Assembly: GCA_001443005.1 (NCBI GenBank)
Contig: LEKQ01000001.1
Coordinates: forward strand, 142,792 to 206,791
Direction of reading: 5' to 3'
Origin: a bacterium GBS-1
Lineage (GTDB): Bacteria; Synergistota; GBS-1
Length of the DNA stretch: 64,000 bases
Of this stretch, positions 41,041 through 64,000 are shown piece after piece. The position numbers and the translations under genes are program-made. Numbering within the stretch: the stretch's first letter is position 1; every line of letters starts with the position of its first letter. The notes beneath the pieces were generated by a model. That model was not told the origin of the DNA, made no database searches, and worked only from the letters and a program-made list of their open reading frames with translations.

Positions 41041-41047
41041 TTAAAGC

Positions 41048-44928: not shown

Positions 44929-44949
44929 TCATTTAAGGAGGAGATTAAG

Positions 44950-45489: not shown

Positions 45490-45504
45490 GGAGGTGCTTG
45501 TTCT

Positions 45505-48977: not shown

Positions 48978-48988
48978 AGGCCAACGGC

Positions 48989-49027
48989 GTTGGAAGAAAG
49001 AGCCGCTAGTAAGCTCTTTCTTCCAAC
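48989..49027. terminator. bidirectional terminator hairpin between convergent pfpI-like and ABC ATPase genes
   Basis: Perfect 15-bp stem GTTGGAAGAAAGAGC / GCTCTTTCTTCCAAC with a 9-nt loop. Confidence 0.7.
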
Positions 49028-49037
49028 CCAAACAGAT

Positions 49038-50078
49038 TTAAGCTTCAAAGACATGAACGGCAGTAGCCTTAAATCCAGCAAAGAGTTTCTTGCCTGGCTG
49101 TATGCCAATTTCAACTGCTGAGGAACGCGTTACCAAGGCTTTGAGTGTTAACCCTCCAACATCCAAGGTAACCTTAAATAAACCTCCAATATCCATAACA
49201 TCTACTACAGTAGCCTCAAGCATATTTCTAAGCGAGCTCCTAAAAGGCTCTTCGGATAGAATTATATCCTCAGAGCGAACAGCTATCCTAACTCTACCAA
49301 AGTACCTCGTGGGAAGCACTATCCTGACTCCATTGGCTTCAAGAAGTTCACCGTTAGCCATACCCTCGATTATGTTCTCAAAACCCAAAAAGGAGGCAAT
49401 ATTCTCATCCCTAGGGTTAGAAAAGACTTCCTTCACACTTCCAACCTGAGACATCCTTCCATCTAACATTACCCCCACTCTATCTCCAAGAAGCAGAGCC
49501 TCCTCGAAGGAATGGGTAACATGTATCACAGTTAAGCCAAGCTCTCGTTTCCAAACCTTCATCTCAAGGATCAACCTAGAAGTAGTTGATGGATCAAGGT
49601 TAGCGAAGGGCTCATCTAAAAGCAAAAACTTACTACCAATAGCTAAACCTCTAGCAATAGCAACGCGCTGCGCTTCGCCTCCGCTTAGCGTTGAAGGCCT
49701 TCTTTCAAGAAGGTGCTCTATGTTAAGTACTGACGCTATATTTTTAACTACGTTTGAAATCTTATCTTCGGAGAGTTTTCTAATCTCAAGCCCATAGGCT
49801 ATATTTTCATAAACGGTCATATGGGGGAAGAGGGCATAGTTTTGAGGAACATAGGCAAAGCCCCTTTTTTCCGGCTCAAGAAACGTGATATCCTTCCCCT
49901 TCCATATTATCCTTCCCCTATAGGGGAAAAATATACCAGCTATAATCTCAAGTAATAAAGTTTTACCGGCCCCGCTTGGTCCAAGAACTATAAAATAATC
50001 CCCTTCGTAAACCTTGAAAGACACATCGTTAAGACTAAAATCTTTCCAACTTCTATATACACTTTGAAGCTCAAGCAC
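49038..50078 (-). CDS. wtpC: molybdate/tungstate ABC transporter ATP-binding protein with C-terminal TOBE domain
   Basis: GPSGAGKT Walker [16 protein letters not shown] signature, and a C-terminal TOBE-like domain. Confidence 0.8.
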
Positions 50079-50829
50079 TCTTACTTAACCTCCCTATCAA
50101 TGCCCTAAGTAAAGCAAAGGCTCCTAAGCTTAATCCCATAAGTATTACGGCAATGGGTCTTGACGCAGCAAGACCATAGTTGTTGAAATACTCCATAACA
50201 ACCACCTGCGCGGTCTTAGGATAATAAGCTACCACCATTATCGCTCCAACCTCGCTCACTGCCCTCGCCCAAGCCATTACCCCCCCAGTTGCTATAGAAT
50301 GAAAGGCGATAGGGAGAGAAACAGTAAAGAAAACTCTAATTTTAGAGGCACCAAGGCTCCGCGCCACATACTCAAGCTTAGGATCAACAGCCAAGAACCC
50401 ATCTCGGGAGGAGTTAACTACAAAAGAAACGGACACAAATAACATAACCATGATTATCCCCGTGTAACTGTCAAGGATTCTCCTAGAAAAAGCAAGTAAA
50501 AGCATTATACCTACCACTGAATGGGGGATAACTACTGGGAGATCCACTATACCCTGAACTAAAGCTTTACCCTTAAATTCCCTTTTAGCCAAAAGATATC
50601 CTAAAGGAACCCCAAGGATCAAGGCCAGGAAGGTGGAGATTAGAGAGGTAAACAGAGTATTTCTTAATGCTTCAAGAACAACTTCATCGCGAAAAGCTTT
50701 AAGTAAGCTACCTATATCTACAATCTGCTCACCAAAAAGGGTTAATATAGGGTAAAGGACATAAGCTATTAAAACGCTTCCTATGCCTGCAAAAAGATAG
50801 TCGAAATAATCCCGCTTAGATTTATTCAC
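50071..50829 (-). CDS. wtpB: molybdate/tungstate ABC transporter permease
   Basis: Six-TM MetI-like permease with an EAA loop region (ARSLGAS). Confidence 0.8.
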
Positions 50830-51842
50830 CTTACCTCCACCAACCTCTCTATCTCCTTGGGAACTTCTCCAAAGGCAATGGGCTTTTCCAGAAAATCATG
50901 ATAATTATCTATGAAAGCCCTTCTACCCTCACTAAGCATATAGCTTATAAAGTCAAGAGCAAGATCCCTATTGGGAGCATCCCTAAGCATAGCAATACCA
51001 TAGACCACAGGGATTCCTTTTATTTTACTCCCGATATATTCAAGAAAAACAATAGTCCTCTCATAGATGTTATCGAAAGAAATGTTTCCCAAGTTTATCT
51101 CAGAAGGCAGCTCAACATAGCCCAAACCATGTTGCTTTGCAACGCTTTTATAGATGAAAAGGTAGTCCAGGGCACCACTTTTTACCAACCCAGCCAGATC
51201 TACTTCCTTCGGTCTTATAACTATCTTTCTTGAATTAACCTTTATAATTTTAGGAACGTGTATCTCACAGTTTAAAGAAGTTATATTAGTATTAGAAGCA
51301 ATCAAAGAATTAAATACCGGTTTACCGTAATAGAACTCAGAAAGCTTGATAACCATTAGGCTTCTATATCCACAGGGATCCTGATTAGGATCACCAAATC
51401 CAAAAGAAACACCTTCTTTAGATAGAACATCATACCAATTTTGAGAGTTTATACTATCCCTATACTTACTTTTCTCAGAGTAGGCCAGCACTATCTCATT
51501 AGTTGCAAAAAGAATGTAGAAAGAGGCATGTTTAGGAAAGAGAAGCTGAGGAATTAAAGCATAGTCAGCAACGGCTATTATATCACCCCTTTTACCAAGA
51601 TCAGTCACCTTTCTTATCGCCTCAATGCTTCCAGATATCTCACTTCTAAAAGACACTTCTTCCCCGAACCTTTCCATATAGTAACTCTTAAAACTCTCCT
51701 GAAGCGCTTTAAACGGGATGCTTAAGGAGCCTGCGTGAAACATGATGAGTTCTTTACTCCTCACACTTGATAGAAAGCTTGAGGTTAAAAGCAAAACCAG
51801 TAAGAAGAATATCGATACCTTCTTACATGGCAAGTTAAACAT
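50826..51842 (-). CDS. wtpA: tungstate/molybdate ABC transporter substrate-binding protein (WtpA-like)
   Basis: Signal peptide, then [13 protein letters not shown] matching the WtpA FHAGSL motif. Confidence 0.7.
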
Positions 51843-51962
51843 GGTTCATCCCGTTAAGTTAAAAATTAAAGTTCCTTTCACAAAGCTAAGCAAGGGAAGC
51901 ATCTTTCGATCATAGACGACCTTTAAAATTATAACATATCTTCAGGGCTTATCTATAAGCGA

Positions 51963-51992
51963 TTGACCAAGTCTTGGAATTGGGAGTATAAT
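51963..51992 (+). promoter_or_regulatory. sigma70-like promoter TTGACC-18-TATAAT
   Basis: Near-consensus hexamers 40 nt upstream of the 52033 start. Confidence 0.6.
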
Positions 51993-52032
51993 TCAAGTAA
52001 CTGTTTTTATTTTTACTAAAGGAGGTGAAAAA

Positions 52033-52677
52033 ATGACTAAGAATAGATTTATAACACTTGATATTTGTCTATTAATATTCTTACTATTAGCCTTAGCTGA
52101 AAGATCGGAAGCGCAAAGCATTTATTATAAGGAGATACTCACAGACGAAGATGTAAGCCTAAGCCCACGCACTTGGGTTATCCTTAATGAAATAACTACA
52201 TGGGACCAAATAGTAACCTACACTGGAGATCCTAACCTCCATAACCTTGAAAATATTATAAGGTCAAGCCCAAAAGTCCAACCAGATTCTGATGTATATT
52301 TATACGGACTAGGAATGTACTTTTGGAGCGCGGTAATTGAGAACGATCTGTTCATCACCATCAGCTCTCTATATTATGATAGCCAAGAAGACCTAGTCAT
52401 AGCTTTTAACCCTTGGATAAGAACTTGGCACATTATAGATGAATTCTCCTCAGGAGCTTACATAGAAAACGCTTACCCACTAACGTTATGCATCGAAGAT
52501 GACTCTATATATGATGCAACTCCTGGAACTCCCCAACCAGAGATAACTTTCATAGTCGTAATAGCTAAGGTCTATAACTATGGTGGAGGAGGTGGATGTA
52601 CTACAGGAGAGAAAGAAAGCCTAAATCTTTTGTTATTACTACTTCCTCTCGGACTAATGATATTTAAAAAACGTTAA
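52033..52677 (+). CDS. secreted protein with Gly/Cys-rich C-terminal sorting-signal-like tail
   Basis: Signal peptide (LLIFLLLALAERSEA). C-terminus YGGGGGCTTGEKESLNLLLLLLPLGLMIFKKR, that is a Gly run with Cys, a TM helix and a basic tail. Confidence 0.6.
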   Translation: MTKNRFITLDICLLIFLLLALAERSEAQSIYYKEILTDEDVSLSPRTWVILNEITTWDQIVTYTGDPNLHNLENIIRSSPKVQPDSDVYLYGLGMYFWSAVIENDLFITISSLYYDSQEDLVIAFNPWIRTWHIIDEFSSGAYIENAYPLTLCIEDDSIYDATPGTPQPEITFIVVIAKVYNYGGGGGCTTGEKESLNLLLLLLPLGLMIFKKR

Positions 52678-52714
52678 GATTGGATTTAAAAGACGAAACT
52701 AAACTTTGCTAAAA

Positions 52715-52753
52715 GCGGGGTAGCTCTGATAAAGTGAAAAGGAGCTGCCCCGT
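52715..52753 (+). terminator. stem-loop downstream of 52033 gene (putative terminator)
   Basis: GCGGGGTAGCTC / GAGCTGCCCCGT stem with a 15-nt loop. The U-tract is weak. Confidence 0.4.
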
Positions 52754-52787
52754 ACTTTCTAAAGCTTATTAAAAGGGAGGTATAAGC

Positions 52788-53624
52788 TTGAGGGTATCCA
52801 TAATAGGAGTAGGCCTCATGGGAGGATCCCTTGGAATGGCTCTCAGGAAAAGGCTAAAAGCCTTCGTTAAAGGACATGTTAGAAGGGAAGAAACAGGCAT
52901 GAAAGCGGTAGAGCTTGGTGCCCTAGACGAGTGGAGCCTATCTCTCGAAGAAAGCGTTAAAAATGCTGATTACGTATTTTTTGCCACCCCCGTAAAGAGC
53001 ATAATTAACATCTTTAAGGAAGCCCAGCCTTTCCTAAAAAAGGGGACTTTAGTAAGCGACCTTGGAAGCACCAAGAGAAGCATAGTTAGGGAAATAACCC
53101 CCGTTCTAAGAGACGATCTTGCCTTTATAGGAGGTCATCCCATGACGGGATCAGAAAAAAGCGGTATAGAGCACGCAAGAGCTGATCTATATGAAGGAGC
53201 AACCTACATACTAACACCAGTTCCCCCCTACGATAGAGGAAGAATTGACGAGCTCATAGAAATAATTAAATCCTTAGGTGCTAACCCTTTTATAATCGAT
53301 CCGGAAAAACACGATCTACTCGTAGCACTTGTAAGCCATCTACCATACCTGATATCCGTTTCCTTGGTTAAACTTCTCGATGAAGATCCGGAAGCAGAAA
53401 AGGTAGTCGCAGGCAACTTCAGGGATTTAACCAGACCGGCATCGAGCGACCCAACGATGTGGAAAGACATACTGAGAGATAACAGGGATTTTATAAAAGG
53501 TAAGCTCTTTAAACTCTATGAGATCATGGTAAAAGTGCTTGAAATGAAAGAAGAAGACTTATACCAATTCCTTAGCAGCATCAAGAATAGAAGAGATTCC
53601 ATATTTCTCACAAGGCTTTCTTAA
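52788..53624 (+). CDS. tyrA: prephenate dehydrogenase
   Basis: IIGVGLMGGSLGMAL Rossmann N-terminus. TTG start with AGGGAGG SD. Confidence 0.85.
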   Translation: MRVSIIGVGLMGGSLGMALRKRLKAFVKGHVRREETGMKAVELGALDEWSLSLEESVKNADYVFFATPVKSIINIFKEAQPFLKKGTLVSDLGSTKRSIVREITPVLRDDLAFIGGHPMTGSEKSGIEHARADLYEGATYILTPVPPYDRGRIDELIEIIKSLGANPFIIDPEKHDLLVALVSHLPYLISVSLVKLLDEDPEAEKVVAGNFRDLTRPASSDPTMWKDILRDNRDFIKGKLFKLYEIMVKVLEMKEEDLYQFLSSIKNRRDSIFLTRLS

Positions 53625-54643
53625 CTAACCTGACCAGATGGATAAGAACCAAGAAGCTTTACAAAGATAGACATTTCTTCAAGTTCACTTAAGGCCTCCT
53701 TAACTTCTTTATCTTTTAGACTTCCCTTAAAATCCATAAAGAAGATATAATCCCACGGTTTAGTTTTAACCGGCCTTGAATGGATGCTAGTTAAATCTAT
53801 CCCTCTCTCAGCAAAGGGACGTAAAGCGCGATAAAGAGCTCCGGGAACGTTTTTAACGCTAAATATTAGACTCGTCTTATCCCCTTCAACTTGCTCCCTT
53901 GATATAACTATAAACCTAGTATAATTGTTCTTCCTATCCTGGATCGACCTCTCTATAACCCTCAATCCATATATCTCAGACAAAAGCTCAGCTCCTATCA
54001 CCGCTTCTCCCCTCTCTTTAGCTATCTGAGCTGCTTTCGAGGTACTCTCCACACTTATAAGCTTCGCATTGGGGAACCTTTCAGAAATATAATCCCTACA
54101 CTGCTCCAAGGCGTGAGAATGAGAATATATCTCTCTTATATTGCCAATGTCTTTTTCAGAAAGAAGACATAAATCTATCCTCTCGTACCTCTCCCCAACG
54201 ACATAAACGTTCCTTTCCAACAACAAATCTAATACTTCTCCAACTGGACCAGCCAAACTGTTATCTATAGGCAAAATTGAAAACTCACTCCTTTTACCCT
54301 CAACCATATCAAAAAGCTCCCTGAAATTCCTACAGGGGCTTAACTCCACATAATGCGAAAAGGCATTTATAGCAGCTTGGTGAGAAAAACTTCCCTCGGG
54401 TCCCAGAAAGCAAACCCTTACAGGCTCCTGAACCCTCCTACAAAGACCGATTATTTCTCTGAAGATCTCTTTATACCTCCCAGCCCAAAGAAGTATCTCC
54501 TGCTCTCTCTTGGGATCCCAAAAGGGAATATTTTCCCTCCTTTTATACTCTCCCAACTTCTTAGCAATTTCAACTCTCTCATCCAGAAGAGACCTTATCT
54601 TCTCATCTATTTGAGAGATCCTTTGCCGCAACTCTTCAAGCAT
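53621..54643 (-). CDS. pheA: bifunctional chorismate mutase / prephenate dehydratase
   Basis: CM_2 domain (LEELRQRISQIDEKIRSLLDERVEIAKKLGEYK), PDT domain and ACT domain. The track ORF extends 7 codons upstream to 54664. Confidence 0.85.
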   Translation of the reverse strand: MLEELRQRISQIDEKIRSLLDERVEIAKKLGEYKRRENIPFWDPKREQEILLWAGRYKEIFREIIGLCRRVQEPVRVCFLGPEGSFSHQAAINAFSHYVELSPCRNFRELFDMVEGKRSEFSILPIDNSLAGPVGEVLDLLLERNVYVVGERYERIDLCLLSEKDIGNIREIYSHSHALEQCRDYISERFPNAKLISVESTSKAAQIAKERGEAVIGAELLSEIYGLRVIERSIQDRKNNYTRFIVISREQVEGDKTSLIFSVKNVPGALYRALRPFAERGIDLTSIHSRPVKTKPWDYIFFMDFKGSLKDKEVKEALSELEEMSIFVKLLGSYPSGQVS

Positions 54644-54774
54644 CCCCTGAACACCTCCTTTCAACTATAAATTTAGTATAACACACAATCGCCAAAAAGC
54701 GATATTTCCAAAGGTTGTTCTGTAATGAACATTCTATTCCAAAGGTAGAGGATGGATTAAACATATTTTCTATT

Positions 54775-54805
54775 TTATCAAAAATTTTCTTGCTTTTTTT
54801 GATAA
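54775..54805 (+). promoter_or_regulatory. 10-bp perfect inverted repeat (TTATCAAAAA-N11-TTTTTGATAA) overlapping a putative -35 TTGATA
   Basis: The two arms are exact reverse complements. The IR lies 45 nt upstream of the first gene of the EPS locus, with a TATATC/TTATAT -10-like element downstream. Confidence 0.45.
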
Positions 54806-54848
54806 TTAGTGATAACATATTTATATCTTCAGGAAAGGGGATAAAAAC

Positions 54849-55964
54849 ATGAAAAGAGTTTTGGGGAAAAAGGGGATGTTTTTAACACTACTTGCTATTG
54901 TTTTACTCTCACTGGCATGTGGAAGCGGAAACTCCTATAATGGAGGGATTGGGGATGCTGCTGAACCCACGTTCTACCAGTTAAAGGAAGACATAGCACG
55001 CGGCTTAGAAACCCTAAGATCACCGCAAGGGTTGTTATATACCTCTACGACAGAAAAGAGTTTCTTATCTGAGACCATAGGTCTTGAGATGCTTTGGCGT
55101 GTGATGATAGAAGACAAGGCAAATTTCGACAAGCAATACGCTCTTTTGAAGAAATATTTTATCTCCCCAGGGGGATTACTTTACTGGAAGCTAAGCGCAA
55201 ATCTGAAACCCTCTAACGCAAATGCATCCGTAGACGATTTAAGGGTCTGTAAAGCTCTCCTATTGGCTTACAAGAAGTGGGGAGACTCAAACTATCTTAG
55301 CGCCGCAAAGCAGATAGCAGATGGACTACTTAAATATTGTGTTAAAGACTACATACTATTAGACGGAGCTTCTTGGCAGAGCGGGGGAATATACGGAGGC
55401 GTGAAAATAACCGGAGTAATTAACCAGATAACGCTTTCTTATCCAGACATTGAAACGATGATACTTTTAAGAGACATTAACGGCGAATGGCTCAAGGTTG
55501 CTCAAAAAACAGCTGGTGTGGTCCTATTGGGAGCAACCCTTAAGGAACACGATGTATACTGGGGATATGATTTAGTAAAAGAAAGCTACTTTGATCTAGG
55601 TGAAGAAAACTTAATAAACGTATTTCTTCATCTTTTTCATCTAGCAAGTATTGGAAGCATACCTGTAAAAAATGTCAGCTATTTCGCATCCAATTTAAAA
55701 AGCGAGGGAGGAATATACATAAATGGAGTTGATGAAAACGTAGCCGTTTACGCTGTTGCAAGCATGGTTTTTCATTATAGCGGATTCCCGGAAGAGAGAG
55801 ACACCTGCCTTAAAAAGCTATTTGATTTTCGCTTAGATAACGGTCTTTTAGGCTACTTGCTCGATGGGGGCAAAGTAAATGCGTGGGCATTTGACAACTT
55901 ACTTGCTCTAATTTCGCTCGAAATAGCGATGAAAAGTAAGGAGGCTCAAACAAGTAACCCATGA
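54849..55964 (+). CDS. putative lipoprotein glycoside hydrolase (GH8-like alpha/alpha-toroid)
   Basis: Signal peptide with Cys (LLSLAC). TSTTEKSFLSETIGLEMLW and ASVDDLRVCKALLLAY resemble the GH8 SEGQSY / D-x-x-IAxALL motifs. The assignment is tentative. Confidence 0.45.
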   Translation: MKRVLGKKGMFLTLLAIVLLSLACGSGNSYNGGIGDAAEPTFYQLKEDIARGLETLRSPQGLLYTSTTEKSFLSETIGLEMLWRVMIEDKANFDKQYALLKKYFISPGGLLYWKLSANLKPSNANASVDDLRVCKALLLAYKKWGDSNYLSAAKQIADGLLKYCVKDYILLDGASWQSGGIYGGVKITGVINQITLSYPDIETMILLRDINGEWLKVAQKTAGVVLLGATLKEHDVYWGYDLVKESYFDLGEENLINVFLHLFHLASIGSIPVKNVSYFASNLKSEGGIYINGVDENVAVYAVASMVFHYSGFPEERDTCLKKLFDFRLDNGLLGYLLDGGKVNAWAFDNLLALISLEIAMKSKEAQTSNP

Positions 55965-56857
55965 GAAAAGAAAGCAATTCAAGCCCTAATGACCCAACCC
56001 CCTTAGAGAAAAGCCTTAAGGAAAGGTTCTATATTCTTACAAGCATCGTGCTTATACTATTTACTATTTTACAAACATGGCTATTTATGAATGGCGCCTA
56101 TAACATAGAGCAATTCATATTACTTACATTAAGCATCTTCTTACTATATGTGGGATTAATTGGTGGATTGAAAATCACCATGATTGCGAACCTTATTTTC
56201 GTGCTTGGATATGGACTTTTGAACACCTTCCTATACTTTAAATTTTATTTAGAAGCGAAAATAGGAATCAACCAGTTTATATGGCTAATAATCACTCCAC
56301 TAATAGCATACATAGGAGGGCTAATACACGAAGAGTGGAAAAAGCTTTTAACACAGCTTGTAGCTTTGGTAAGCGAGGGTGAGAGCTTTAACACATTAGA
56401 TAGGACAGTTGGGCTAACCAAGGCAGAAAGCTTCGCTCTCAGAGTTAATCAGGAAATCTCAAGGGTTAAAAGGCACGGTGGAACTTTTAGTATCCTGCTA
56501 ATTAAAGTTGAACACCTCAAGGAACTTTCGGACATATACGGAGAAAGGATAAGAGATACGGTTTTGGGAAAGGTGACCGAAGCTCTTAAGAAACTCAAGA
56601 GAGAAGAAGACTCCCTTTATTACATATCAGAAGGGGAATTTGCCCTTCTCTTACCAGATACCAACAAAGAAGGGGCTAATCTGATGTTAAAAAGAATTAA
56701 GCAGGATCTGAACTATGTTGATATCTCGGGTGAAAAGGATTTTATGAGAATAAAGATCAATATCCGGATAGGAGCATCAACATACCCAGACGATGGAGAA
56801 GATTACATACCCTTGATATGGGCAGCTAGAAAGGAGTATGAGTATGACATTAAATAA
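55961..56857 (+). CDS. membrane protein with degenerate GGDEF domain (SEGEF) and intact RxxD I-site
   Basis: Four or five N-terminal TM helices. The GGDEF fold is recognisable: REED-SLYYI-SEGEF in place of RxxD-x5-GGDEF. Confidence 0.65.
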   Translation: MRKESNSSPNDPTPLEKSLKERFYILTSIVLILFTILQTWLFMNGAYNIEQFILLTLSIFLLYVGLIGGLKITMIANLIFVLGYGLLNTFLYFKFYLEAKIGINQFIWLIITPLIAYIGGLIHEEWKKLLTQLVALVSEGESFNTLDRTVGLTKAESFALRVNQEISRVKRHGGTFSILLIKVEHLKELSDIYGERIRDTVLGKVTEALKKLKREEDSLYYISEGEFALLLPDTNKEGANLMLKRIKQDLNYVDISGEKDFMRIKINIRIGASTYPDDGEDYIPLIWAARKEYEYDIK

Positions 56858-58454
56858 CCGAAGGACAAGGATTATACATTTTATAGCTTCTTACCTGTTC
56901 TTCTCCTTATTTATAATAGCGCTATCTAATCCCGCCACAGCACTCGGCAAAAGATCAGCCTTAGTTCTATACGATGAAGTAACGCAAGACTATGGAACTA
57001 GTTTAGTAAATATCTTAGGACACTTCTACAATGAGTATGATGTAAATCTGATTAACATCTCTAAAGCCGATCTTGAAGAAGTTAAAGAAGTAGATGCTCT
57101 ATTTTTACTTGCCACTTACTTTTCTTTTAACTACGATATCAACCTGATTAAAGTGATAGGGGAGAGGGAGATTCAAGGAAATAAAATAACATGTCTTATA
57201 GGAACTCCACCCTGGCTTAAAAGAAGTAAAACCATGAAAAGCTTCACATATGTAAGCTACAAAGGTAATGACTACAGAGAGGGAACTTATGACCTGTTTC
57301 CTGTAGATATAGATTTTGACATCACATTAGCAAAATTACATATGGGAGACAAAACCGACGAAACCCCTTTAATAGCAAGGAGAGGAAACCTTTGGATCAT
57401 CCAAGGGTTTCCCATATTTGGCATACACTCCTGGATTTTAGGCGATGCACTACACGACATCCTTGAGGTGAAACACAAAGATGACAAAAACGTATCTCTT
57501 AGGCTCGAAGATGTTAACCCTTCTTACTCTGATCGAGATATTAAGAACTTAGAAGAATGCATAGAATATCTTCATAGCGAAAACATTCCCTTTTTCGTAG
57601 TAGTCTATCCCGTATTCATAGACCGTAAGAGTAATAAGATCATAACTCTAGCGCAAAATCCAAAGCTTATATCCGTACTTAAGAAGGCTGAAAAAATGGG
57701 AGGTAACATAGTGATGCATGGAGTAACTCACCAGCATCAATACATGGAGGTCTCTGGAGAGGGATCTGAGTTCTGGGACATGATTGAAGACAAACCGCTA
57801 TATAATGAAGTGGAATTCTTTAATGAAAGGATATCCTATGGGCTTAAAATCTTCAAGGAGGCCGGATTAAATCCATTGTTTTTCGAAGCACCTCACTATA
57901 ACCTTTCATTAAACTTACAGTTCGAACTTTCTAAATACTTTAGCACGCTACTCGGATCAGTTTTGATAAGCGATAGAACCTATAGAATCTCCCAAAGCTT
58001 TCCATTCTTAATATACAAAAGCTACTCCGGATTGATGGTTATTCCTGAACAGCTGGGCTATATCTCAGTGGACGATATCTCTGGATCGATAAGCTCGATA
58101 AAGGAAAAAGCCCTAAAACTTAAGAACATCGTCAGAGACCCTATGGCCTGTTTCTTCTATCACCCCTTCGTCAATGGCGTAGTTCCCTTAAAGGAGCTAA
58201 TTTCCTTCTTCATAAATGAAGGGTTCAGTTTTGTTAATATCTCTTCATACGTTCAACCTCCAAAAGCTCTCACGATAGATACTTCTTCTTCGAAACCCAT
58301 AGAGGATATAACAAAAATTGGAAGAAAACCGATCTATATAGGAAAGACCTTCGCAACGTTTTCCATAGCTTCCTCTATACTCTTTTTTCTAATTTACCTT
58401 AAGATTCTAAAGAAGAGAAAGAGGAGGCTTTTTGAAATTGATAAACCTTCTTGA
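56838..58454 (+). CDS. polysaccharide deacetylase-like protein (CE4/DUF2334-like) with N-terminal domain and C-terminal TM anchor
   Basis: Signal/TM N-terminus. LRLEDVNP and VMHGVTHQH resemble CE4 metal-binding motifs. A C-terminal hydrophobic helix is followed by KKRKRR. Confidence 0.55.
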   Translation: MSMTLNNRRTRIIHFIASYLFFSLFIIALSNPATALGKRSALVLYDEVTQDYGTSLVNILGHFYNEYDVNLINISKADLEEVKEVDALFLLATYFSFNYDINLIKVIGEREIQGNKITCLIGTPPWLKRSKTMKSFTYVSYKGNDYREGTYDLFPVDIDFDITLAKLHMGDKTDETPLIARRGNLWIIQGFPIFGIHSWILGDALHDILEVKHKDDKNVSLRLEDVNPSYSDRDIKNLEECIEYLHSENIPFFVVVYPVFIDRKSNKIITLAQNPKLISVLKKAEKMGGNIVMHGVTHQHQYMEVSGEGSEFWDMIEDKPLYNEVEFFNERISYGLKIFKEAGLNPLFFEAPHYNLSLNLQFELSKYFSTLLGSVLISDRTYRISQSFPFLIYKSYSGLMVIPEQLGYISVDDISGSISSIKEKALKLKNIVRDPMACFFYHPFVNGVVPLKELISFFINEGFSFVNISSYVQPPKALTIDTSSSKPIEDITKIGRKPIYIGKTFATFSIASSILFFLIYLKILKKRKRRLFEIDKPS

Positions 58455-59709
58455 TTATGCCTTCATCTTCTCTGTAATGGTGATATGGACCCTACTGTTG
58501 TACCATGTCATACTGTCCTTCTTAGGCTTTAGATATTCTCTAATCTCAGAAAGAGAAAAGGAGAGGTTCGATTTAACACCCCTTAACGAAAGCAGTCTTC
58601 CAAAGGTAACGATACTTATACCTGCTCATAATGAGTCAGCTGTTATAGAAAGAACCTTAATAGCTATGGGAAACCTTAACTATCCTAAGGAGAAGCTCGA
58701 GATTCTTTGCCTTAATGATAACTCCACCGATAACACTGAATCGATCGCAAGAAGGACAGCTGAAAAAATAGGAAAGCATATAAAGGTGGTCAATGTCCCT
58801 CGTGAAAGGGGCAAGCGGGGAAAGTCGTCAGTCCTAAACTATGGCTTAGAGATAGCTACAGGAGAGGTAATAGCTGTATATGACGCTGATAATACTCCCG
58901 AAAGCAATTCCTTACTCTACCTAGTCCGAAACCTTTTAGAGGGTAGAGGGAAAATTGGAGCAGTTATAGGTAAGTTTAGAACCAGGAATAGGGAAAGAAA
59001 CCTTTTAACCCACTTCATAAACTTAGAAACCATATTTTATCAGTGGACAACGCAGGCCGGCAGATGGCATCTATACAAGCTAGCTACACTTCCAGGAACA
59101 AACTTCGTAATATGGAAGAGCCTTTTAAATGAACTAAACGGATGGGATACAAAGGCCTTAACAGAGGATACCGAGCTTTCTTTGAGAATCTACCTTAAAA
59201 ACCTGCTTATAAAGATGGTTCCATATGCAATAACCTGGGAAGAAGAACCCGAAAGGTTAAGCGTTTGGTTCAAACAAAGAACAAGATGGGCTCAAGGTAA
59301 TCTCTATGTTCTTAGGAAATACTTTTTCCCTCTTCTTTTTTCCGGAAACTTTATGCTTTTCTTCGATTTACTTTACCTCATAATAGTGTACTTCCTTTTT
59401 CTTTCGAGCATCGTAATTTCCTTGTTTATATTCCTAACAGGAATAATGGGGTTATGGAGAGTAAATGTAGAAGGACCATTTAATCTGCTATGGTTCATGG
59501 CCATTATCCTTTTCATACTTGAACTGGGAATAACGCTTACGTCTGAACCAGGGGAAAACAGGCTAGGAAATCTTTTGCTTGGGCTATTGATGTACTTCAC
59601 ATATACTCAGCTTTGGATTTTAGTTGTGATAAACGCCCTATGGCAATCTATAAAATCGATTTTAAAGAGAGAAGGACTCTCTTGGTATAAAACAGAAAGG
59701 GCAGGGTGA
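58432..59709 (+). CDS. family-2 processive glycosyltransferase (PgaC/IcaA/BcsA-core-like synthase, no PilZ)
   Basis: N-terminal TM, GT-A fold with ILIPAHNES, DAD (DxD) and QRTRWAQG (QxxRW), then four C-terminal TM helices. 425 aa. Confidence 0.85.
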   Translation: MKLINLLDYAFIFSVMVIWTLLLYHVILSFLGFRYSLISEREKERFDLTPLNESSLPKVTILIPAHNESAVIERTLIAMGNLNYPKEKLEILCLNDNSTDNTESIARRTAEKIGKHIKVVNVPRERGKRGKSSVLNYGLEIATGEVIAVYDADNTPESNSLLYLVRNLLEGRGKIGAVIGKFRTRNRERNLLTHFINLETIFYQWTTQAGRWHLYKLATLPGTNFVIWKSLLNELNGWDTKALTEDTELSLRIYLKNLLIKMVPYAITWEEEPERLSVWFKQRTRWAQGNLYVLRKYFFPLLFSGNFMLFFDLLYLIIVYFLFLSSIVISLFIFLTGIMGLWRVNVEGPFNLLWFMAIILFILELGITLTSEPGENRLGNLLLGLLMYFTYTQLWILVVINALWQSIKSILKREGLSWYKTERAG

Positions 59710-59715
59710 GAGAAA

Positions 59716-61770
59716 TTGACAAAATTATGCTTAATACTGATGTTTCTTATAGTAGCGCTACAGGAACCAACCCTAGCTAACCAGAATGCTTATCCAAACG
59801 AGGAAAAACCGGAAAGCTTAAACATATTTCTAACTATAGAGGATATAAGCATATCCTCTATATTTGGTTATAAGGATTTCTATTTCACAATACCACCATC
59901 ATGGAAGCTTCTACCAGGATCATTTCTAGACCTAGTTATAAGTCATTCCAAGGCGATTAAACCTGATTTATCGGGTTTAACAATCTACCTAAATGGAATG
60001 CCAATCTATTCAATCCCACTAGATGATAGTAACTCATTGAAAACATCGATCAAAATTCCAATTCCAGAAGGAAACCTGAAGAGGGGCATTAACATTTTAG
60101 AAGTTAAAGGCTTCTTGAAAACTACCGGTAGGGGACTCACTGACGTGGGCAATCCTATCAATTGGGTAAAAGTTCATAAGGAGAGTTATGTCCGCTTAAA
60201 ATACTTCCTAAGAAAGGATCTGAGTATAAAAGATTTTCCTTCTCCATACTTTGAGGAAAACGTTCCACAGGATGAAATGACCGCCTTTATTCTTCCACAA
60301 AATTGGTCTGATACCGAGCTTAAGGCTGTCCTAGTAATAGTCCTCGATTGGGTTCGAAGATCACCGTTAAAGTGGTTCGCCCCTAAAATATTCACATTTG
60401 ATGAGCTTAACGAAGAGATAAAAGAAACCTACAATTTAATCTATATAGGAAAAGCCACTTCCTTTACACCTGAGGTCTTAAAGGAGTTCAACGTAGATAT
60501 TCCAAGCTTAGGAGAGGGTACCATCATTTCAAGCCTTATAAGTAAAAATAAAAAAGCAAAACTTCTCGTTTCATCTAAAGGAGACGATGGGATAAGCAGA
60601 GGAGCTTTATCTCTTCTATCCCCAGAAATTACAAAACAAATCGAAGGCGATAAAGCTTACATTCCACCCTACGTAAAGATTCCTTCACTAAGCCAAAAAG
60701 CTTTAACCACAGGAAATATCGTATATTTTAATGACCTAATAAAAAGGGATATAGTATTTAAGGGGGCCTATTCTCACTCAGATGCGATTGCACTTAGAAT
60801 ACCTCAAAACTGGTTGATAAAGGGAACACCATATTTAGCGATTCAATTTAGGCATTCCCCAAATCTAAATAGTAAACGTTCAGCCTTAACCATATTGATA
60901 AATGGCATTCCAATTAAGTCGGTAGAGCTTTCTCCCCAAAATGCAGCAGGGGATAAAGTTACCATACCTATACCCTATGATTCTATAAAGCAGGGCTTAA
61001 TATACGTTACTTTCGAAGCTTATTTAGACATAGATATTTTAGACACTGATTACAACTATCCAGAAATAGCTTGGCTTGTAATAGAAAAATACTCTTATTT
61101 CAGCATACCTCATGAGATAGGACTTATGGCAACGACCTTAGAAAACCTTCCTTATACGATCCCAAATGCTATAGGGGTTCTCCTGGGAAGGGAAAAGAGC
61201 AGCAAAGCTCTAAACACCTTACTTTACTGCCTAATGGGCCTACAAAAGCTAAATCCACAAACCCTGCAAATCTCAATATTAAACCTAGATAAAGAGAAAC
61301 TTCTAGAGAACAGCTTCAAAACCCTGATAGTACTAGCACCTATAGAGGAACTCGAAAAAGCTGGCATAAAAATTCCTTTGAATGAAATACCAGCTCTTCC
61401 AAGCTTCATTGAAAACGCAACATTGTGGCAAACTCAAAACCTTAAAGGAAAAGAAAACCCTTTAGTATTAGTAATATCTTGGATAAAGAATCATCCCAAA
61501 CTATATCCTGAGTATGAAAAGACTCTTTTAGAATGGAAGCTCAAAGGGAATATAGCGATGGTTTCCGGTAATGGAGAGGTAATTCCATTTTACATCTCTG
61601 AAGCTCCTACCAAATTACTAGAAGTAAAAATTAAAGAGCAAAGCTTCTTTGAAAAGATATGGGCAAATCTCTCACAAAACCGAAATTTCTTAGGCCTATT
61701 TTTGCTAACGTTTATCACTATCTCGATAGTTATATTAATAATCTTCATAAAAATTAGGAAACAAGAGTAA
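59716..61770 (+). CDS. BcsB-like periplasmic co-polymerase subunit with C-terminal TM anchor
   Basis: Signal peptide. Two repeats of the BcsB-like pattern (LTIYLNGMPIYSIPL...GINILEV...NWVKV; LTILINGIPIKSVEL...IAWLVIEKY). Single C-terminal TM. Confidence 0.6.
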   Translation: MTKLCLILMFLIVALQEPTLANQNAYPNEEKPESLNIFLTIEDISISSIFGYKDFYFTIPPSWKLLPGSFLDLVISHSKAIKPDLSGLTIYLNGMPIYSIPLDDSNSLKTSIKIPIPEGNLKRGINILEVKGFLKTTGRGLTDVGNPINWVKVHKESYVRLKYFLRKDLSIKDFPSPYFEENVPQDEMTAFILPQNWSDTELKAVLVIVLDWVRRSPLKWFAPKIFTFDELNEEIKETYNLIYIGKATSFTPEVLKEFNVDIPSLGEGTIISSLISKNKKAKLLVSSKGDDGISRGALSLLSPEITKQIEGDKAYIPPYVKIPSLSQKALTTGNIVYFNDLIKRDIVFKGAYSHSDAIALRIPQNWLIKGTPYLAIQFRHSPNLNSKRSALTILINGIPIKSVELSPQNAAGDKVTIPIPYDSIKQGLIYVTFEAYLDIDILDTDYNYPEIAWLVIEKYSYFSIPHEIGLMATTLENLPYTIPNAIGVLLGREKSSKALNTLLYCLMGLQKLNPQTLQISILNLDKEKLLENSFKTLIVLAPIEELEKAGIKIPLNEIPALPSFIENATLWQTQNLKGKENPLVLVISWIKNHPKLYPEYEKTLLEWKLKGNIAMVSGNGEVIPFYISEAPTKLLEVKIKEQSFFEKIWANLSQNRNFLGLFLLTFITISIVILIIFIKIRKQE

Positions 61771-62070
61771 AATATCTTAGAAGATCAGATGCTTGACTCT
61801 CATGAAAGAATAAAAATTGAGATCGATAACATCCTTAAGAACAAGTGGATCTTGACATCATCTTATGTGGCGGTATAGAGGATATTGATAAAACCTATCA
61901 GTTTGAAAGGATCTTTTGAAAAGAATCTATCCTTCCTAATCGGTCTATTTAACATAAGATACATTATCCGACATAATGATCTAGAGCATATATTTTATTA
62001 AATCCCACGGACGAAGAAACATAAAAACTGTGTTTTTCCTTACCCATCGGCTCTTCAACATTCTGGGACG

Positions 62071-62967
62071 TTAGAAAGAAGTCAGAGAGTAAGCTATCTC
62101 TAGGGCTTCATGTGGTCCGAATATGCCACTCGGGGCTTCCAAAGCTTTCTTAAGAAAAATCCTCTCAGTCTTAAGCTTTAGGGCCCCTATAGCTTTCGAT
62201 CCTATACCATAAACGCCGGAAAGAACCTCGTTAAGCATGTGATTCGCAGTTATTCCCTCTATACCATGAGGAGGAACAGGATTACTATCTACAAGAAGTC
62301 TACATTTGTTAAGCTTCCTTAAAAGCTCCATACTCACAATTCTAACCCCTGGTGGACCTGTAGATATTATCAAATCTGATGCAAGGCAAGCCTCCTCAGC
62401 TTCCTCTAACTTAAAAAGATGCACTTTTTCGTCCCCAATCTCAAGATTAGTAGAAGAAACCGACTCCATAGCACGTCCCAAGTCTATATCCACTACATTA
62501 ACCTTTACTCCCTGATAAGCAAGAAGATAAGAAGTCATAGAACCTATATTTCCTCCACCAGCAAAAACAGTAGCAATCTTACCATCTAAAGTTTCTCCTA
62601 GCTTCGCAAAAAAGCGCTTCACGAGAGCCACTATAGCTGCCGAAGTTGTAGAAGCCCCTCGAGGGTCAAAAGCAACGGATATTTCAAAGGGCGGGAAAAG
62701 GGTTCTCTTAACCTCCTCAAGCAGCCTTTTCCCTTCTTTAACAGTGCTTCCACCCACGAAAATAGCTGTATTTTTAATACCCTCAGGCCCTCTAGAAAAC
62801 ATCGTATCGATTATCAAATTTCTAACTTCCTCAGGAAGAACGTTACCATAAGGAATAACTATATCAGCACCTGCATCATACATCACAAAAAGATCAAAAG
62901 GACTAGGGTGCTTTTCACTTGTTATAAAAAGAAATATCTTTTTCCTATCTTCCAAGCAAAACACCAC
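62071..62967 (-). CDS. MtdA-like NAD(P)-dependent methylene-tetrahydromethanopterin/tetrahydrofolate dehydrogenase family protein
   Basis: IFLFITSEKHPSPFDLFVMYDAGADIVIPYGNV and TAIFVGGS...FPPFEISVAFDPRGASTTSAA align with the MtdA N-terminal domain. GGGNIGSMTSY Rossmann fold. Confidence 0.6.
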   Translation of the reverse strand: MVFCLEDRKKIFLFITSEKHPSPFDLFVMYDAGADIVIPYGNVLPEEVRNLIIDTMFSRGPEGIKNTAIFVGGSTVKEGKRLLEEVKRTLFPPFEISVAFDPRGASTTSAAIVALVKRFFAKLGETLDGKIATVFAGGGNIGSMTSYLLAYQGVKVNVVDIDLGRAMESVSSTNLEIGDEKVHLFKLEEAEEACLASDLIISTGPPGVRIVSMELLRKLNKCRLLVDSNPVPPHGIEGITANHMLNEVLSGVYGIGSKAIGALKLKTERIFLKKALEAPSGIFGPHEALEIAYSLTSF

Positions 62968-62968
62968 C

Positions 62969-63739: not shown

Positions 63740-63816
63740 CTTCCTATTCCTCCCACATTCATTCTTCGTATCATTATCTTAAGTATACCACAAAGGTCTA
63801 TGATATAATAATTAAC

Positions 63817-64000
63817 ATGAGGAAAGAAGCAATAAAGGTAGCTCTTGTGGGAAGCTTGTATGCCGCTCTTACTATAGTTCTAGCTCCCATAAGTTATGGC
63901 CCTGTCCAAGTTAGAATCGCAGAAGCCCTCACCGTTTTACCTTATATAAGAAGAAACTACATGTGGGGATTGTTCGGAGGATGCATAGTAGCTAATATAT
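63817..64000 (+). CDS. queT: queuosine precursor transporter QueT-like (ECF S-component), 3' truncated by window edge
   Basis: MRKEAIKVALVGSLYAALTIVLAPISYGPVQVRIAEALTVLPY matches the QueT N-terminus. A TATAAT box lies 7 nt upstream of the ATG. Confidence 0.55.
   Translation, partial: MRKEAIKVALVGSLYAALTIVLAPISYGPVQVRIAEALTVLPYIRRNYMWGLFGGCIVANI

What the first reader, a model, noticed from the sequence alone, without database searches (positions are those of the whole stretch)
55961..56857. Degenerate GGDEF (SEGEF) with intact RxxD I-site as probable c-di-GMP receptor of the EPS synthase
The GGDEF fold is clearly present, but the active-site GG(D/E)EF is replaced by SEGEF, so cyclase activity is unlikely. 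An R-E-E-D tetrad sits exactly five residues upstream, at the canonical I-site position. Degenerate GGDEF proteins that retain the I-site are known c-di-GMP receptors that activate EPS synthases (PelD-like logic). The N-terminus has 4-5 TM helices for membrane co-localisation with the GT2 synthase.
Basis: partly seen in the sequence, partly recalled or inferred. Interest (0 to 1): 0.55.

Follow-up and report, generated by a model that had tools for sequence, protein, structure and literature searches.

The report
YdaK-type c-di-GMP receptor for polysaccharide synthase
This gene encodes a membrane protein whose cyclase-like domain has lost its catalytic residues but kept its c-di-GMP-binding pocket. 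It sits in a five-gene sugar-polymer operon with the same layout as the studied Bacillus subtilis ydaJKLMN operon, so it is a correct but ordinary find in an uncultured hot-spring bacterium.

Summary
[quoted passage not shown] The AlphaFold model matches solved GGDEF domains at 1.9 A rmsd. The active-site pentapeptide is SEGEF (223-227), and R214-E-E-D217 lies exactly five residues upstream. The metal-binding Asp position is Lys182 and the 'ND' Asn is Ser190, so cyclase activity is very unlikely.

The gene is translationally coupled in the order GH8, GGDEF*, DUF2334, GT2 (no PilZ), BcsB-like. This is the gene order of B. subtilis ydaJKLMN. YdaK residues 117-219, rebuilt from published HDX-MS peptides, align without gaps to residues 129-231 here (29% identity, E 2.6e-13). 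YdaK R159, R202 and D205 fall on R171, R214 and D217.

Among 45 orthologues next to DUF2334 genes (Synergistota, Atribacterota, Clostridia, Paenibacillaceae; median identity 30%), only six columns are invariant. Three of them are R171, R214 and D217. The GGDEF pentapeptide is never canonical.

The closest model is YdaK/PssE, not PelD, because there is no GAF domain and no pel genes. c-di-GMP binding, and the presence of cyclases elsewhere in this genome, remain untested. This is a new member of a known kind, of low to moderate interest.

The parts
54665..54848 (+). AT-rich intergenic region between divergent pheA (- strand) and the first operon gene; presumed promoter and 5' UTR
   Evidence: 184 nt with no called gene. 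No Rfam family reaches threshold, including c-di-GMP riboswitches. The sigma-70 consensus scan found no site in this spacer; its best + strand hit (54912) is inside the GH8 gene. The promoter is inferred, not shown.
54849..55964 (+). GH8-family glycoside hydrolase with N-terminal signal or lipoprotein-like sequence (YdaJ/PssZ/BcsZ-like)
   Evidence: Pfam Glyco_hydro_8 E 5.5e-9. Hydrophobic segment 4-29 followed by Cys. Its TGA stop overlaps the ATG of the next gene (ATGA). First gene of the operon in 16+ related loci.
55961..56857 (+). The finding: 298-aa membrane protein, 4 TM plus catalytically degenerate GGDEF domain with intact I-site (YdaK/PssE-type receptor)
56027..56326 (+). Membrane anchor, residues 23-122: four hydrophobic segments (23-43, 51-69, 72-93, 103-122). 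Family-conserved Trp108, Pro113 (invariant) and Gly120 lie in TM4
   Evidence: Hydropathy. AlphaFold helices 14-43, 49-95, 103-143. Conservation. The TM region is required in B. subtilis YdaK (PMC5422440).
56399..56830 (+). GGDEF-fold domain, residues 147-290
   Evidence: Pfam PF00990 E 3.3e-21. Foldseek target TM-score 0.82-0.90 to T. maritima GGDEF.
56462..56473 (+). R168-V-K-R171, the 'RxxR' secondary I-site element; R171 is invariant in 45 of 45 orthologues
   Evidence: Aligns to YdaK R156/R159, inside peptide 154-163, which c-di-GMP protects from H/D exchange.
56504..56533 (+). K182-VEHLKEL-S190-D: degenerate counterpart of the DxDxFKxxND metal- and base-binding stretch of active cyclases
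   Evidence: Ungapped alignment to 3ign, 6d9m and 6zxm. Position 182 is never Asp in 45 orthologues.
56600..56611 (+). Primary I-site R214-E-E-D217 (RxxD)
   Evidence: R214 and D217 are invariant in 45 of 45 orthologues. They align to YdaK R202/D205, whose Ala substitutions abolish EPS production.
56627..56641 (+). S223-E-G-E-F227: degenerate A-site pentapeptide in place of GG[DE]EF
   Evidence: This position is hypervariable across the family and never canonical. YdaK has SDERI here.
56838..58454 (+). DUF2334 protein (YdaL-like), with N- and C-terminal hydrophobic anchors; probable extracytoplasmic polysaccharide-modifying enzyme (deacetylase-like; inferred)
   Evidence: Pfam DUF2334 E 5.3e-45. 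Hydrophobic segments 10-33 and 501-525. Overlaps the receptor gene by 20 nt. Public gene callers start it at 56844. Invariant E224/D225/H294/H298 in homologues.
58432..59709 (+). Processive family-2 glycosyltransferase (YdaM/PssC-like synthase), membrane-embedded, with no PilZ domain
   Evidence: Pfam GT2 families, E down to 3.5e-28. Best NCBIfam match is PgaC_IcaA, E 4.6e-44, below its cut-off. DAD151, TED244, QRTRW282; hydrophobic blocks 1-34, 299-373, 381-403. Overlaps the DUF2334 gene by 23 nt.
59716..61770 (+). BcsB-like subunit (YdaN/PssD-like), with signal peptide and C-terminal membrane anchor
   Evidence: Pfam BcsB E 2.8e-31. Hydrophobic segments 1-22 and 655-683. 6-nt gap after the GT2 gene.

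Best explanation
The gene encodes a YdaK/PssE-type c-di-GMP receptor. Four transmembrane helices hold it in the cytoplasmic membrane next to the GT2 synthase and its BcsB-like partner, which are made from the same translationally coupled operon. Its cytoplasmic GGDEF domain cannot make c-di-GMP. It is proposed to bind c-di-GMP, probably as an intercalated dimer, in the I-site pocket formed by R214 and D217 (RxxD) and R171. Binding would change the conformation of the whole domain and switch on, after translation, synthesis and export of an exopolysaccharide by GT2 plus BcsB-like. The polymer would then be modified or trimmed outside the cell by the DUF2334 protein and the GH8 hydrolase.

Shown here: the domain architecture, loss of catalytic residues, retention and family-wide invariance of the I-site residues, homology to YdaK, and the conserved operon.

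Inferred from YdaK and PssE experiments: c-di-GMP binding, activation of the synthase, and a cognate cyclase as signal source.
For: 1. Fold and architecture. The GGDEF domain is supported by Pfam and NCBIfam, by PDB sequence hits and by the AlphaFold model plus Foldseek. There are four hydrophobic segments.

2. Catalytic residues are gone. SEGEF replaces GG[DE]EF, Lys182 replaces the metal-binding Asp, and Ser190 replaces the Asn, in ungapped alignments to active cyclases.

3. I-site selection. I aligned 45 orthologues that lie directly upstream of DUF2334 genes. They come from Synergistota, Atribacterota, Clostridia and Paenibacillaceae, with median pairwise identity 30%. The only invariant columns are P113, D147, F158, R171, R214 and D217. 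The A-site pentapeptide is hypervariable and never canonical. Three prespecified positions being among 6 invariant columns has P of about 3e-5 by a simple count. The same pattern holds in about 75 full-length, roughly 280-aa hits from 1.84 billion representative proteins.

4. Direct homology to the characterised protein. B. subtilis YdaK 117-219, rebuilt from HDX-MS peptides, aligns ungapped to residues 129-231. Identity is 28 of 96, BLASTP E 2.6e-13, and 89.7 bits to the orthologue HMM. YdaK R156, R159, R202, D205 and SDERI fall on R168, R171, R214, D217 and SEGEF.

5. Conserved operon. GH8, GGDEF*, DUF2334, GT2, BcsB-like here, with overlapping or abutting genes. The identical order occurs in 16 other loci, and GGDEF*-DUF2334-GT2-BcsB in 14+ more. 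This is the ydaJKLMN order (PMC13274460).

6. The synthase has no PilZ or other c-di-GMP domain of its own.

7. Experiments on relatives:
- YdaK binds c-di-GMP. R202A and D205A abolish EPS production. The TM helices are required (PMC5422440).
- c-di-GMP protects YdaK peptides 131-164 and the I-site region from H/D exchange (PMC7064775).
- PssE binds c-di-GMP with Kd 0.79 uM, two molecules per protein, and is essential for EPS (PMC4125290).

8. Some orthologous operons have canonical GGDEF or GGDEF-EAL genes next to them (L032, L017, L064, L044).
Against: - No binding or activity data exist for this protein.
- No diguanylate cyclase, EAL, HD-GYP or PilZ gene lies in the window or in about 16 kb of flanks, roughly 80 kb in total. 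No c-di-GMP riboswitch was found. So c-di-GMP signalling in this organism is not demonstrated.
- The window's own clade departs from the family consensus in the D-x-x-T-G-x-x-N stretch: Val150 for Thr (96% in the family) and Lys154 for Asn (98%). This stretch is strongly protected by c-di-GMP in YdaK.
- How YdaK activates its synthase is unknown even in B. subtilis.
- The YdaK comparison used 96 of 283 residues.
Confidence: 0.8

Rival explanations
1. It is a c-di-GMP-independent membrane scaffold. The degenerate GGDEF domain is only a protein-docking module that assembles or positions the synthase complex, as S. aureus GdpS recruits DgkB without any c-di-GMP signalling.
For: GdpS is a precedent for a membrane GGDEF protein that works without c-di-GMP (PMC11962490). 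An NCBIfam GdpS model matches residues 22-271 at E 4.8e-11. No c-di-GMP turnover gene lies in about 80 kb around the locus. In YdaK the R202A change also breaks binding to the cyclase DgcK regardless of added c-di-GMP, so the I-site can also be a protein interface.
Against: The GdpS score is 42 bits against a cut-off of 400. A pure scaffold would not be expected to keep exactly the three c-di-GMP-contacting residues invariant across 45 orthologues from several phyla while the rest of the domain drifts to 30% identity. The two studied family members bind c-di-GMP.
Confidence: 0.1
2. It is a weak or unconventional diguanylate cyclase that supplies c-di-GMP locally to the synthase, using a non-canonical SEGEF active site.
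For: Some cyclases with non-canonical first residues remain active, for example AGDEF in V. cholerae VCA0965 (PMC3974145, title and abstract listed). Glu226 and Phe227 of the motif are retained.
Against: The second Gly and the third (catalytic or metal-binding) acidic residue are both lost (S-E-G-E-F). The DxD metal-binding Asp is Lys182 and the base-binding Asn is Ser190. The protein ends before the C-terminal GRN-type phosphate-binding motif (motif identity from my own knowledge). These positions vary freely across the family. YdaK itself does not synthesise c-di-GMP (PMC5422440).
Confidence: 0.03
3. The conserved pocket binds a different nucleotide, for example another cyclic dinucleotide, (p)ppGpp or GTP, so the operon answers to a signal other than c-di-GMP in this lineage.
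For: GGDEF domains can bind other nucleotides: PleD has been crystallised with c-di-GMP plus ppGpp or pppGpp (entries 9g85 and 9g86, listed). The window's clade differs from the family in the c-di-GMP-responsive DxxTGxxN stretch. Cyclases have not been found in the region examined.
Against: R171, R214 and D217 are the residues used for c-di-GMP in YdaK and in I-site structures. Nothing in the sequence points to another ligand.
Confidence: 0.05

Closest known systems
Bacillus subtilis YdaK (ydaJKLMN operon)
   Same: - Architecture: about 283-298 aa, 4 TM helices plus a degenerate GGDEF domain.
- RxxD five residues before the degenerate pentapeptide, and an upstream RxxR.
- Ungapped alignment over the 103 positions compared (29% identity, E 2.6e-13).
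- Same five-gene order: GH8, receptor, DUF2334, GT2, BcsB-like.
   Different: - Pentapeptide is SEGEF rather than SDERI.
- Val150 and Lys154 replace the family's Thr and Asn.
- 12 extra N-terminal residues.
- The host is an uncultured thermophile that depositors label Synergistota, not a Bacillus.
- SigB control and the DgcK partnership are not known to apply.
- Only 96 YdaK residues were available for comparison.
Listeria monocytogenes PssE (pssA-E operon)
   Same: A membrane-anchored degenerate GGDEF I-site receptor, essential for an EPS made by an IcaA-like GT2 (PssC) and a BcsB orthologue (PssD). A GH8-type glycosidase acts on the polymer (PMC4125290).
   Different: In Listeria the receptor gene is last in the operon and the glycosidase is encoded elsewhere, next to cyclase and phosphodiesterase genes. 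The PssE sequence was not compared here.
Pseudomonas aeruginosa PelD
   Same: Same logic: an inner-membrane protein whose degenerate GGDEF domain binds c-di-GMP at RxxD and licenses a polysaccharide synthase (PMC7112168, listed; details from my own knowledge).
   Different: PelD has a GAF domain between the membrane anchor and the GGDEF domain, and works with a GT4 (PelF) in a pel operon. Here the TM-to-GGDEF linker is a single helix of about 24 residues, Pfam finds no GAF, and the neighbours are GT2 and BcsB.
BcsA-BcsB cellulose synthase (PilZ-gated) and PgaCD
   Same: A processive membrane GT2 with D, DxD, TED and QxxRW motifs, paired with a BcsB-like subunit and a GH8 hydrolase; the output is controlled by c-di-GMP.
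   Different: The synthase here has no C-terminal PilZ domain (425 aa). The sensor is a separate protein. The GT2 is closer to PgaC/IcaA than to BcsA (E 4.6e-44 versus 3e-28), but it is below the cut-offs of both.
Staphylococcus aureus GdpS
   Same: A membrane-anchored single GGDEF-domain protein with a non-enzymatic role; weak full-length NCBIfam match.
   Different: GdpS keeps GGEEF, acts independently of c-di-GMP and recruits DgkB. The score here is far below the family cut-off (42 versus 400 bits).

Membership tests
YdaK/PssE-type I-site receptors of GT2-BcsB exopolysaccharide operons | Roughly 280-300 aa with an N-terminal four-helix membrane anchor and a single C-terminal GGDEF domain, and no other domain | tested here: met
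   298 aa. Four hydrophobic segments. GGDEF is the only Pfam domain above cut-off. AlphaFold model. AlphaFold merges TM2 and TM3 into one helix, so the count of 4 rests on hydropathy and on the YdaK precedent.
YdaK/PssE-type I-site receptors of GT2-BcsB exopolysaccharide operons | Degenerate A-site (no GG[DE]EF; catalytic residues lost) | tested here: met
   SEGEF; Lys182 for the metal-binding Asp; Ser190 for Asn. 0 of 45 orthologues are canonical.
YdaK/PssE-type I-site receptors of GT2-BcsB exopolysaccharide operons | Intact primary I-site RxxD five residues upstream of the pentapeptide, plus the upstream Arg (RxxR) | tested here: met
   R214/D217 and R168/R171. R171, R214 and D217 are invariant in 45 of 45 orthologues.
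YdaK/PssE-type I-site receptors of GT2-BcsB exopolysaccharide operons | Sequence homology to B. subtilis YdaK | tested here: met
   YdaK 117-219 from HDX peptides versus residues 129-231: no gaps, 28 of 96 identical, E 2.6e-13, 89.7 bits to the orthologue HMM. This is a partial sequence; the TM region and C-terminus of YdaK were not available.
YdaK/PssE-type I-site receptors of GT2-BcsB exopolysaccharide operons | Encoded in an operon with a GT2 synthase, a BcsB-like subunit, a DUF2334 protein and (often) a GH8 hydrolase | tested here: met
   The same order occurs in 16 other loci, and without GH8 in 14+.
YdaK/PssE-type I-site receptors of GT2-BcsB exopolysaccharide operons | Binds c-di-GMP through the I-site and is required for polymer production | not testable with these tools
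   Shown only for YdaK and PssE.
PelD | GAF domain between the membrane anchor and the degenerate GGDEF domain | tested here: not met
   No GAF hit in Pfam at E <= 0.01. Only a helix of about 24 residues (123-146) links TM4 to the GGDEF domain.
PelD | pel operon context (PelA-G, GT4 PelF) | tested here: not met
   The neighbours are GH8, DUF2334, GT2 and BcsB.
Active diguanylate cyclases (GGDEF enzymes) | GG[DE]EF motif and the DxD metal-binding Asp | tested here: not met
   SEGEF and Lys182.
GdpS (NCBIfam NF047872) | Score at or above the curated cut-off (400 bits) | tested here: not met
   42.4 bits.
PilZ-gated BcsA cellulose synthase (for the neighbouring GT2) | C-terminal PilZ domain on the synthase | tested here: not met
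   Only GT2 families hit. The protein is 425 aa and ends in TM segments.

The most novel reading that the evidence does not exclude
In this thermophilic, Synergistota-affiliated lineage the YdaK-type pocket may not read c-di-GMP made by the cell's own cyclases. Either the genome lacks cyclases and the invariant R171/R214/D217 pocket binds another nucleotide, or it serves purely as a docking surface. The clade-specific changes at Val150 and Lys154, in the stretch that c-di-GMP protects in YdaK, would then mark a re-tuned receptor. My evidence (80 kb without any c-di-GMP turnover gene, and no binding data) does not exclude this.
Probability: 0.07. Interest if true: 0.6.

Novelty: new member of a known kind. 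Interest (0 to 1): 0.25.

Why it matters
The finding extends a c-di-GMP receptor-plus-synthase module, studied only in Bacillus and Listeria, to an uncultured hot-spring bacterium (77 C) that depositors label Synergistota. The same operon is also present in Atribacterota and many Clostridia, including C. difficile and C. tetani.

The comparative result is useful to the field. Across 45 orthologues, only the three I-site residues, one Asp at the domain entry, one Phe, and one Pro in TM4 are invariant. This gives a compact signature for annotating these proteins as receptors; public records currently label them 'diguanylate cyclase'.

A thermostable orthologue could also be a good subject for solving a receptor-GT2-BcsB complex structure. 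None of this overturns current understanding.

Tried and rejected
1. A 14-sequence DUF2334 alignment (A2) was too divergent for the genome scan. A 7-sequence subset (A3) worked.

It was replaced by A5, built from database hits.

3. I tried to retrieve B. subtilis YdaK by a profile search. The hit list was swamped by C. difficile variants. B. subtilis was also not among the 80 loci kept. I solved this by rebuilding residues 117-189 and 197-219 from HDX-MS peptides in a supplement. A search of the supplement with tab-containing terms found nothing.

4. No c-di-GMP riboswitch or any other Rfam family was found in the window or in the operon leader. The one sub-threshold sRNA hit (E 0.57) is noise.

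5. The promoter and terminator consensus scans were no better than shuffled sequence and were not used.

6. The Pfam Csm1_B hit (E 0.0017, below cut-off) was rejected as Palm-fold cross-talk.

7. A search for other GGDEF or EAL genes by phmmer on the six-frame window and by precomputed Pfam calls over about 80 kb found none. This is too little of the genome to conclude anything.

8. A literature search for 'DUF2334' plus 'c-di-GMP' returned nothing.

9. The organism could not be named from the protein clusters of the operon genes, which carry no names. Only the neighbouring D-Glu-cyclase cluster carries depositor labels (Synergistetes/Synergistota; 'bacterium 42_11'). The taxonomy look-up of that name failed on syntax.
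Full report
**What is there**

The ORF at 55961-56857 (+ strand, ATG to TAA) encodes 298 residues. Pfam places a GGDEF domain at residues 147-290 (E 3.3e-21, 76 bits against a cut-off of 23.8), and NCBIfam's generic GGDEF model agrees. An AlphaFold2 model built on 21 homologues has mean pLDDT 81.6. Its C-terminal half superposes on solved GGDEF domains. The best matches are Thermotoga maritima 4urs and 4urg, with target TM-scores of 0.82-0.90 and rmsd of about 1.9 A.

Kyte-Doolittle analysis gives four hydrophobic segments: 23-43, 51-69, 72-93 and 103-122. AlphaFold draws helices 14-43, 49-95 and 103-143. The TM2/TM3 hairpin is therefore the least certain element, and the count is 4, not 5. 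With four helices, the Lys/Arg-containing N-terminus and the GGDEF domain are both cytoplasmic (inference from the sequence).

**The motifs**

SEGEF occupies residues 223-227. R214-E-E-D217 lies upstream with exactly five residues between them. HMMER alignments to solved, active cyclases run without gaps through this region. 'RQSD-SAGRY-GGEEF' of 3ign lies over 'REED-SLYYI-SEGEF', and 'DIDHFKPVND' lies over 'KVEHLKELSD'.

So the degeneracy goes beyond the pentapeptide:
- The first Asp of the DxD stretch is Lys182. From my own knowledge, this corresponds to the Mg-binding D327 of PleD.
- The Asn of 'ND' (PleD N335, guanine contact) is Ser190.
- The protein ends at '...ARKEYEYDIK', before the C-terminal GRN-type phosphate-binding motif.

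Cyclase activity is therefore very unlikely. A second basic motif, R168-V-K-R171, aligns with the Arg pair that precedes beta-1 in the active enzymes.

**Context**

The gene is the second of five tightly packed + strand genes:

| Gene | Coordinates | Evidence |
|---|---|---|
| GH8 hydrolase with a signal or lipoprotein-like N-terminus | 54849-55964 | |
| The GGDEF* gene | 55961-56857 | |
| DUF2334 protein with N- and C-terminal anchors | 56838-58454 | E 5e-45, |
| Membrane GT2 with DAD, TED and QRTRW motifs and no PilZ domain | 58432-59709 | |
| BcsB-like protein with a signal peptide and C-terminal anchor | 59716-61770 | Pfam BcsB E 2.8e-31, |

The junctions are an ATGA overlap, a 20-nt overlap, a 23-nt overlap and a 6-nt gap, which implies one translationally coupled operon. 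Upstream lies a 184-nt AT-rich spacer facing the divergent pheA gene. No Rfam family, including c-di-GMP riboswitches, reaches threshold there or anywhere else in the window.

**Provenance**

Identical proteins occur on metagenome contigs from Great Boiling Spring at 77 C and from other samples. The neighbouring D-glutamate-cyclase gene falls in a cluster at 90% identity or more whose named members are MAGs labelled Synergistetes/Synergistota and 'bacterium 42_11'. The window's own genome was not in the species-representative genome collection. The best locus there, L004, is an unclassified MAG at 53% identity.

**Related sequences**

An exhaustive HMMER search of 1.84 billion representative proteins gave 73,334 GGDEF hits. 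About half of the top 150 are proteins of roughly 280 aa that match the query nearly end to end (residues about 22-297). In these, the pentapeptide is anything but GG[DE]EF, the DxD Asp is replaced, and RxxD is kept.

Independently, I scanned one genome for each of 185,579 species with a DUF2334 alignment. This found 307 loci, of which 80 were fetched. I annotated them with HMMs built locally from the five window proteins:
- 16 loci have exactly GH8-GGDEF*-DUF2334-GT2-BcsB.
- At least 14 more have the same order without GH8. These include Clostridioides difficile, Clostridium tetani, Paraclostridium and Romboutsia.
- Synergistota and Atribacterota loci carry a duplicated or fused DUF2334 gene.

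**Selection on the I-site**

I aligned the 45 GGDEF* proteins that sit directly upstream of a DUF2334 gene. Their median pairwise identity is 30%, with a minimum of 18%. Only six columns are invariant: P113 (TM4), D147, F158, R171, R214 and D217. The pentapeptide column block reads SEGEF, GRDEF, ESDMI, ENDTL, QKDMI, EDDTF and so on, and position 182 is never Asp. By simple counting, three prespecified positions being among six invariant columns has P of about 3e-5.

This is the signature expected if selection acts on c-di-GMP binding and not on catalysis.

**Tie to experiment**

B. subtilis ydaJKLMN has the same five functions in the same order (PMC13274460).

YdaK is a 4-TM protein with the degenerate motif SDERI.
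- Its RxxD (R202-D205) lies five residues upstream of that motif. It also has an upstream RxxR.
- It binds c-di-GMP but does not make it.
- R202A or D205A abolishes EPS production, and deleting the four TM helices does the same (PMC5422440).
- c-di-GMP reshapes the whole domain, and the I-site is needed for contact with the cyclase DgcK (PMC7064775).

I could not retrieve YdaK from the databases. I rebuilt residues 117-189 and 197-219 from the HDX-MS peptide table of that paper. The fragment aligns to residues 129-231 of the window protein without a single gap (offset +12). Identity is 28 of 96, BLASTP E is 2.6e-13, and it scores 89.7 bits against the HMM of the 45 orthologues.

YdaK D135, R156, R159, R202, D205 and SDERI fall on D147, R168, R171, R214, D217 and SEGEF. 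The peptides most protected by c-di-GMP in YdaK cover the counterparts of the invariant D147 and R171. Peptide 132-148 drops from 8.4 to 4.2 Da at 10 s, and peptide 154-163 drops from 3.1 to 1.4 Da.

Listeria PssE is a second characterised relative of the same kind. Its Kd is 0.79 uM, it binds two c-di-GMP per protein, and it is essential for an EPS made by an IcaA-like GT2 and a BcsB orthologue (PMC4125290).

**Mechanism proposed**

The membrane anchor places the protein next to the GT2/BcsB-like synthase. c-di-GMP binds the R214/D217/R171 pocket, and the resulting conformational change turns on polymerisation and export. The DUF2334 protein and the GH8 enzyme act on the polymer outside the membrane.

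- Shown here: the architecture, the loss of catalytic residues, the invariance of the I-site residues, homology to YdaK, and the conserved operon.
- Inferred: ligand binding, activation of the synthase, and the existence of a partner cyclase.

The synthase's lack of a PilZ domain fits a sensor that acts in trans. The GT2's best family match is PgaC/IcaA (E 4.6e-44, below cut-off). The DUF2334 family keeps invariant Asp and His residues. Together these hint at an N-acetyl-hexosamine polymer that is partly deacetylated. This is speculation.

**Weak points**

- Nothing here shows that this organism makes c-di-GMP. The window plus about 16 kb of flanks (roughly 80 kb) contains no other GGDEF, EAL, HD-GYP or PilZ gene. 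That is a small fraction of a genome. Flagellar chaperone genes fliS and flgN are present, which is compatible with a motile-to-sessile switch but proves nothing.
- The window's clade replaces the family's Thr150 and Asn154 with Val and Lys, in a c-di-GMP-responsive stretch.
- S. aureus GdpS shows that a membrane GGDEF protein can work with no c-di-GMP at all (PMC11962490). The match to the GdpS model is far below its cut-off (42 versus 400 bits), and a scaffold-only role would not explain the invariance of the I-site residues.

**Comparison and verdict**

The right comparator is YdaK/PssE rather than PelD. PelD shares the logic, but it has a GAF domain and sits in a pel operon, and neither feature is present here.

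This is a new member, in a new lineage, of a known kind of system. Its main practical value is as an annotation signature and as a possible thermostable subject for structural work. Many database entries for these proteins read 'diguanylate cyclase'.

Interest is 0.25.

Noticed in passing
L049, L052, L055, L057, L058, L065, L066, L068, L069, L074, L075 (also L033, L063, L071): Many Bacillaceae carry a variant operon, DUF2334-DUF2334-GT2-GH8 (or DUF2334-GT2-GH8), with no YdaK-like receptor gene and no BcsB-like gene detected. L044 and L064 have large GGDEF or GGDEF-EAL genes nearby instead. How these variants are regulated is unclear.
   Followed up: partly
L061, L062, L072, L073, L076-L080, L082, L083: Loci from the Bacillus cereus group and related Bacillus and Bacillaceae records show a DUF2334 gene with none of the other four operon genes within 8 kb, so DUF2334 also occurs outside this system.
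   Followed up: no
L005 4341-7486, L006 6415-9509, L040 6288-9413: Synergistota loci have two tandem DUF2334 genes, and an Atribacterota locus has a single 1041-aa ORF that looks like a fusion of two. The window has only one copy.
   Followed up: no
window 56408-56425 (residues 150-155): The window's clade (with P0002-P0006 and L004) has Val at the family's 96%-conserved Thr150. The family's 98%-conserved Asn154 is variable in this clade and is Lys in the window. This lies in the stretch that c-di-GMP most strongly protects in B. subtilis YdaK.
   Followed up: partly
window 56105-56245 (residues 49-95): AlphaFold models TM2 and TM3 as one continuous 47-residue helix, whereas hydropathy and the YdaK literature indicate a two-helix hairpin with a very short GGLK turn.
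   Followed up: no
L011, L012, L021, L026 (about 1.1 kb downstream of the BcsB-like gene); L032 7460-8590; L017 860-3325: Several orthologous operons are flanked by additional GGDEF-domain genes. The L032 gene carries a GGDEF pentapeptide, and L017 has an EAL-like motif but no canonical GGDEF. They are possible partner cyclases, comparable to DgcK-YdaK.
   Followed up: partly
window 37987-48977: A large cluster for a bidirectional (Hox-type) NiFe hydrogenase: a 1017-aa NuoF/GltD-like fusion protein, HoxH at 45505-46932, and the maturation genes hypA and hypB. It lies just upstream of a molybdate or sulfate-type ABC transporter on the opposite strand.
   Followed up: no
window 8307-9198 and 21865-22125: The flagellar chaperone genes fliS and flgN sit among translation genes, and there is a SpoVS-family gene, in a lineage labelled Synergistota.
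   Followed up: no
window 1-48000 versus 48000-64000: GC skew and AT skew are strongly positive, with nearly all genes on the + strand, up to about 48 kb. After that the skew sign and gene orientation become mixed, and cumulative GC skew peaks near 46-48 kb.
   Followed up: no
PMC5422440 text versus Dataset S1 of PMC7064775: The YdaK 'RxxR' is given as R157-R160 in the text, but the HDX peptide numbering puts it at R156-R159. The Methods also name the mutant D204A, while the Results say D205A. These are small numbering inconsistencies in the literature.
   Followed up: yes
P0200-P0222: The C. difficile orthologues of this receptor are named 'diguanylate cyclase' in public records, although their pentapeptide is QKDMI and the metal-binding Asp is absent. 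This is likely systematic mis-annotation.
   Followed up: partly
window 59716-61770: Public gene callers disagree on the start of the BcsB-like gene (684 versus 676 aa). They also start the GT2 gene at 410, 423 or 425 aa and the DUF2334 gene at 536 versus 538 aa.
   Followed up: no
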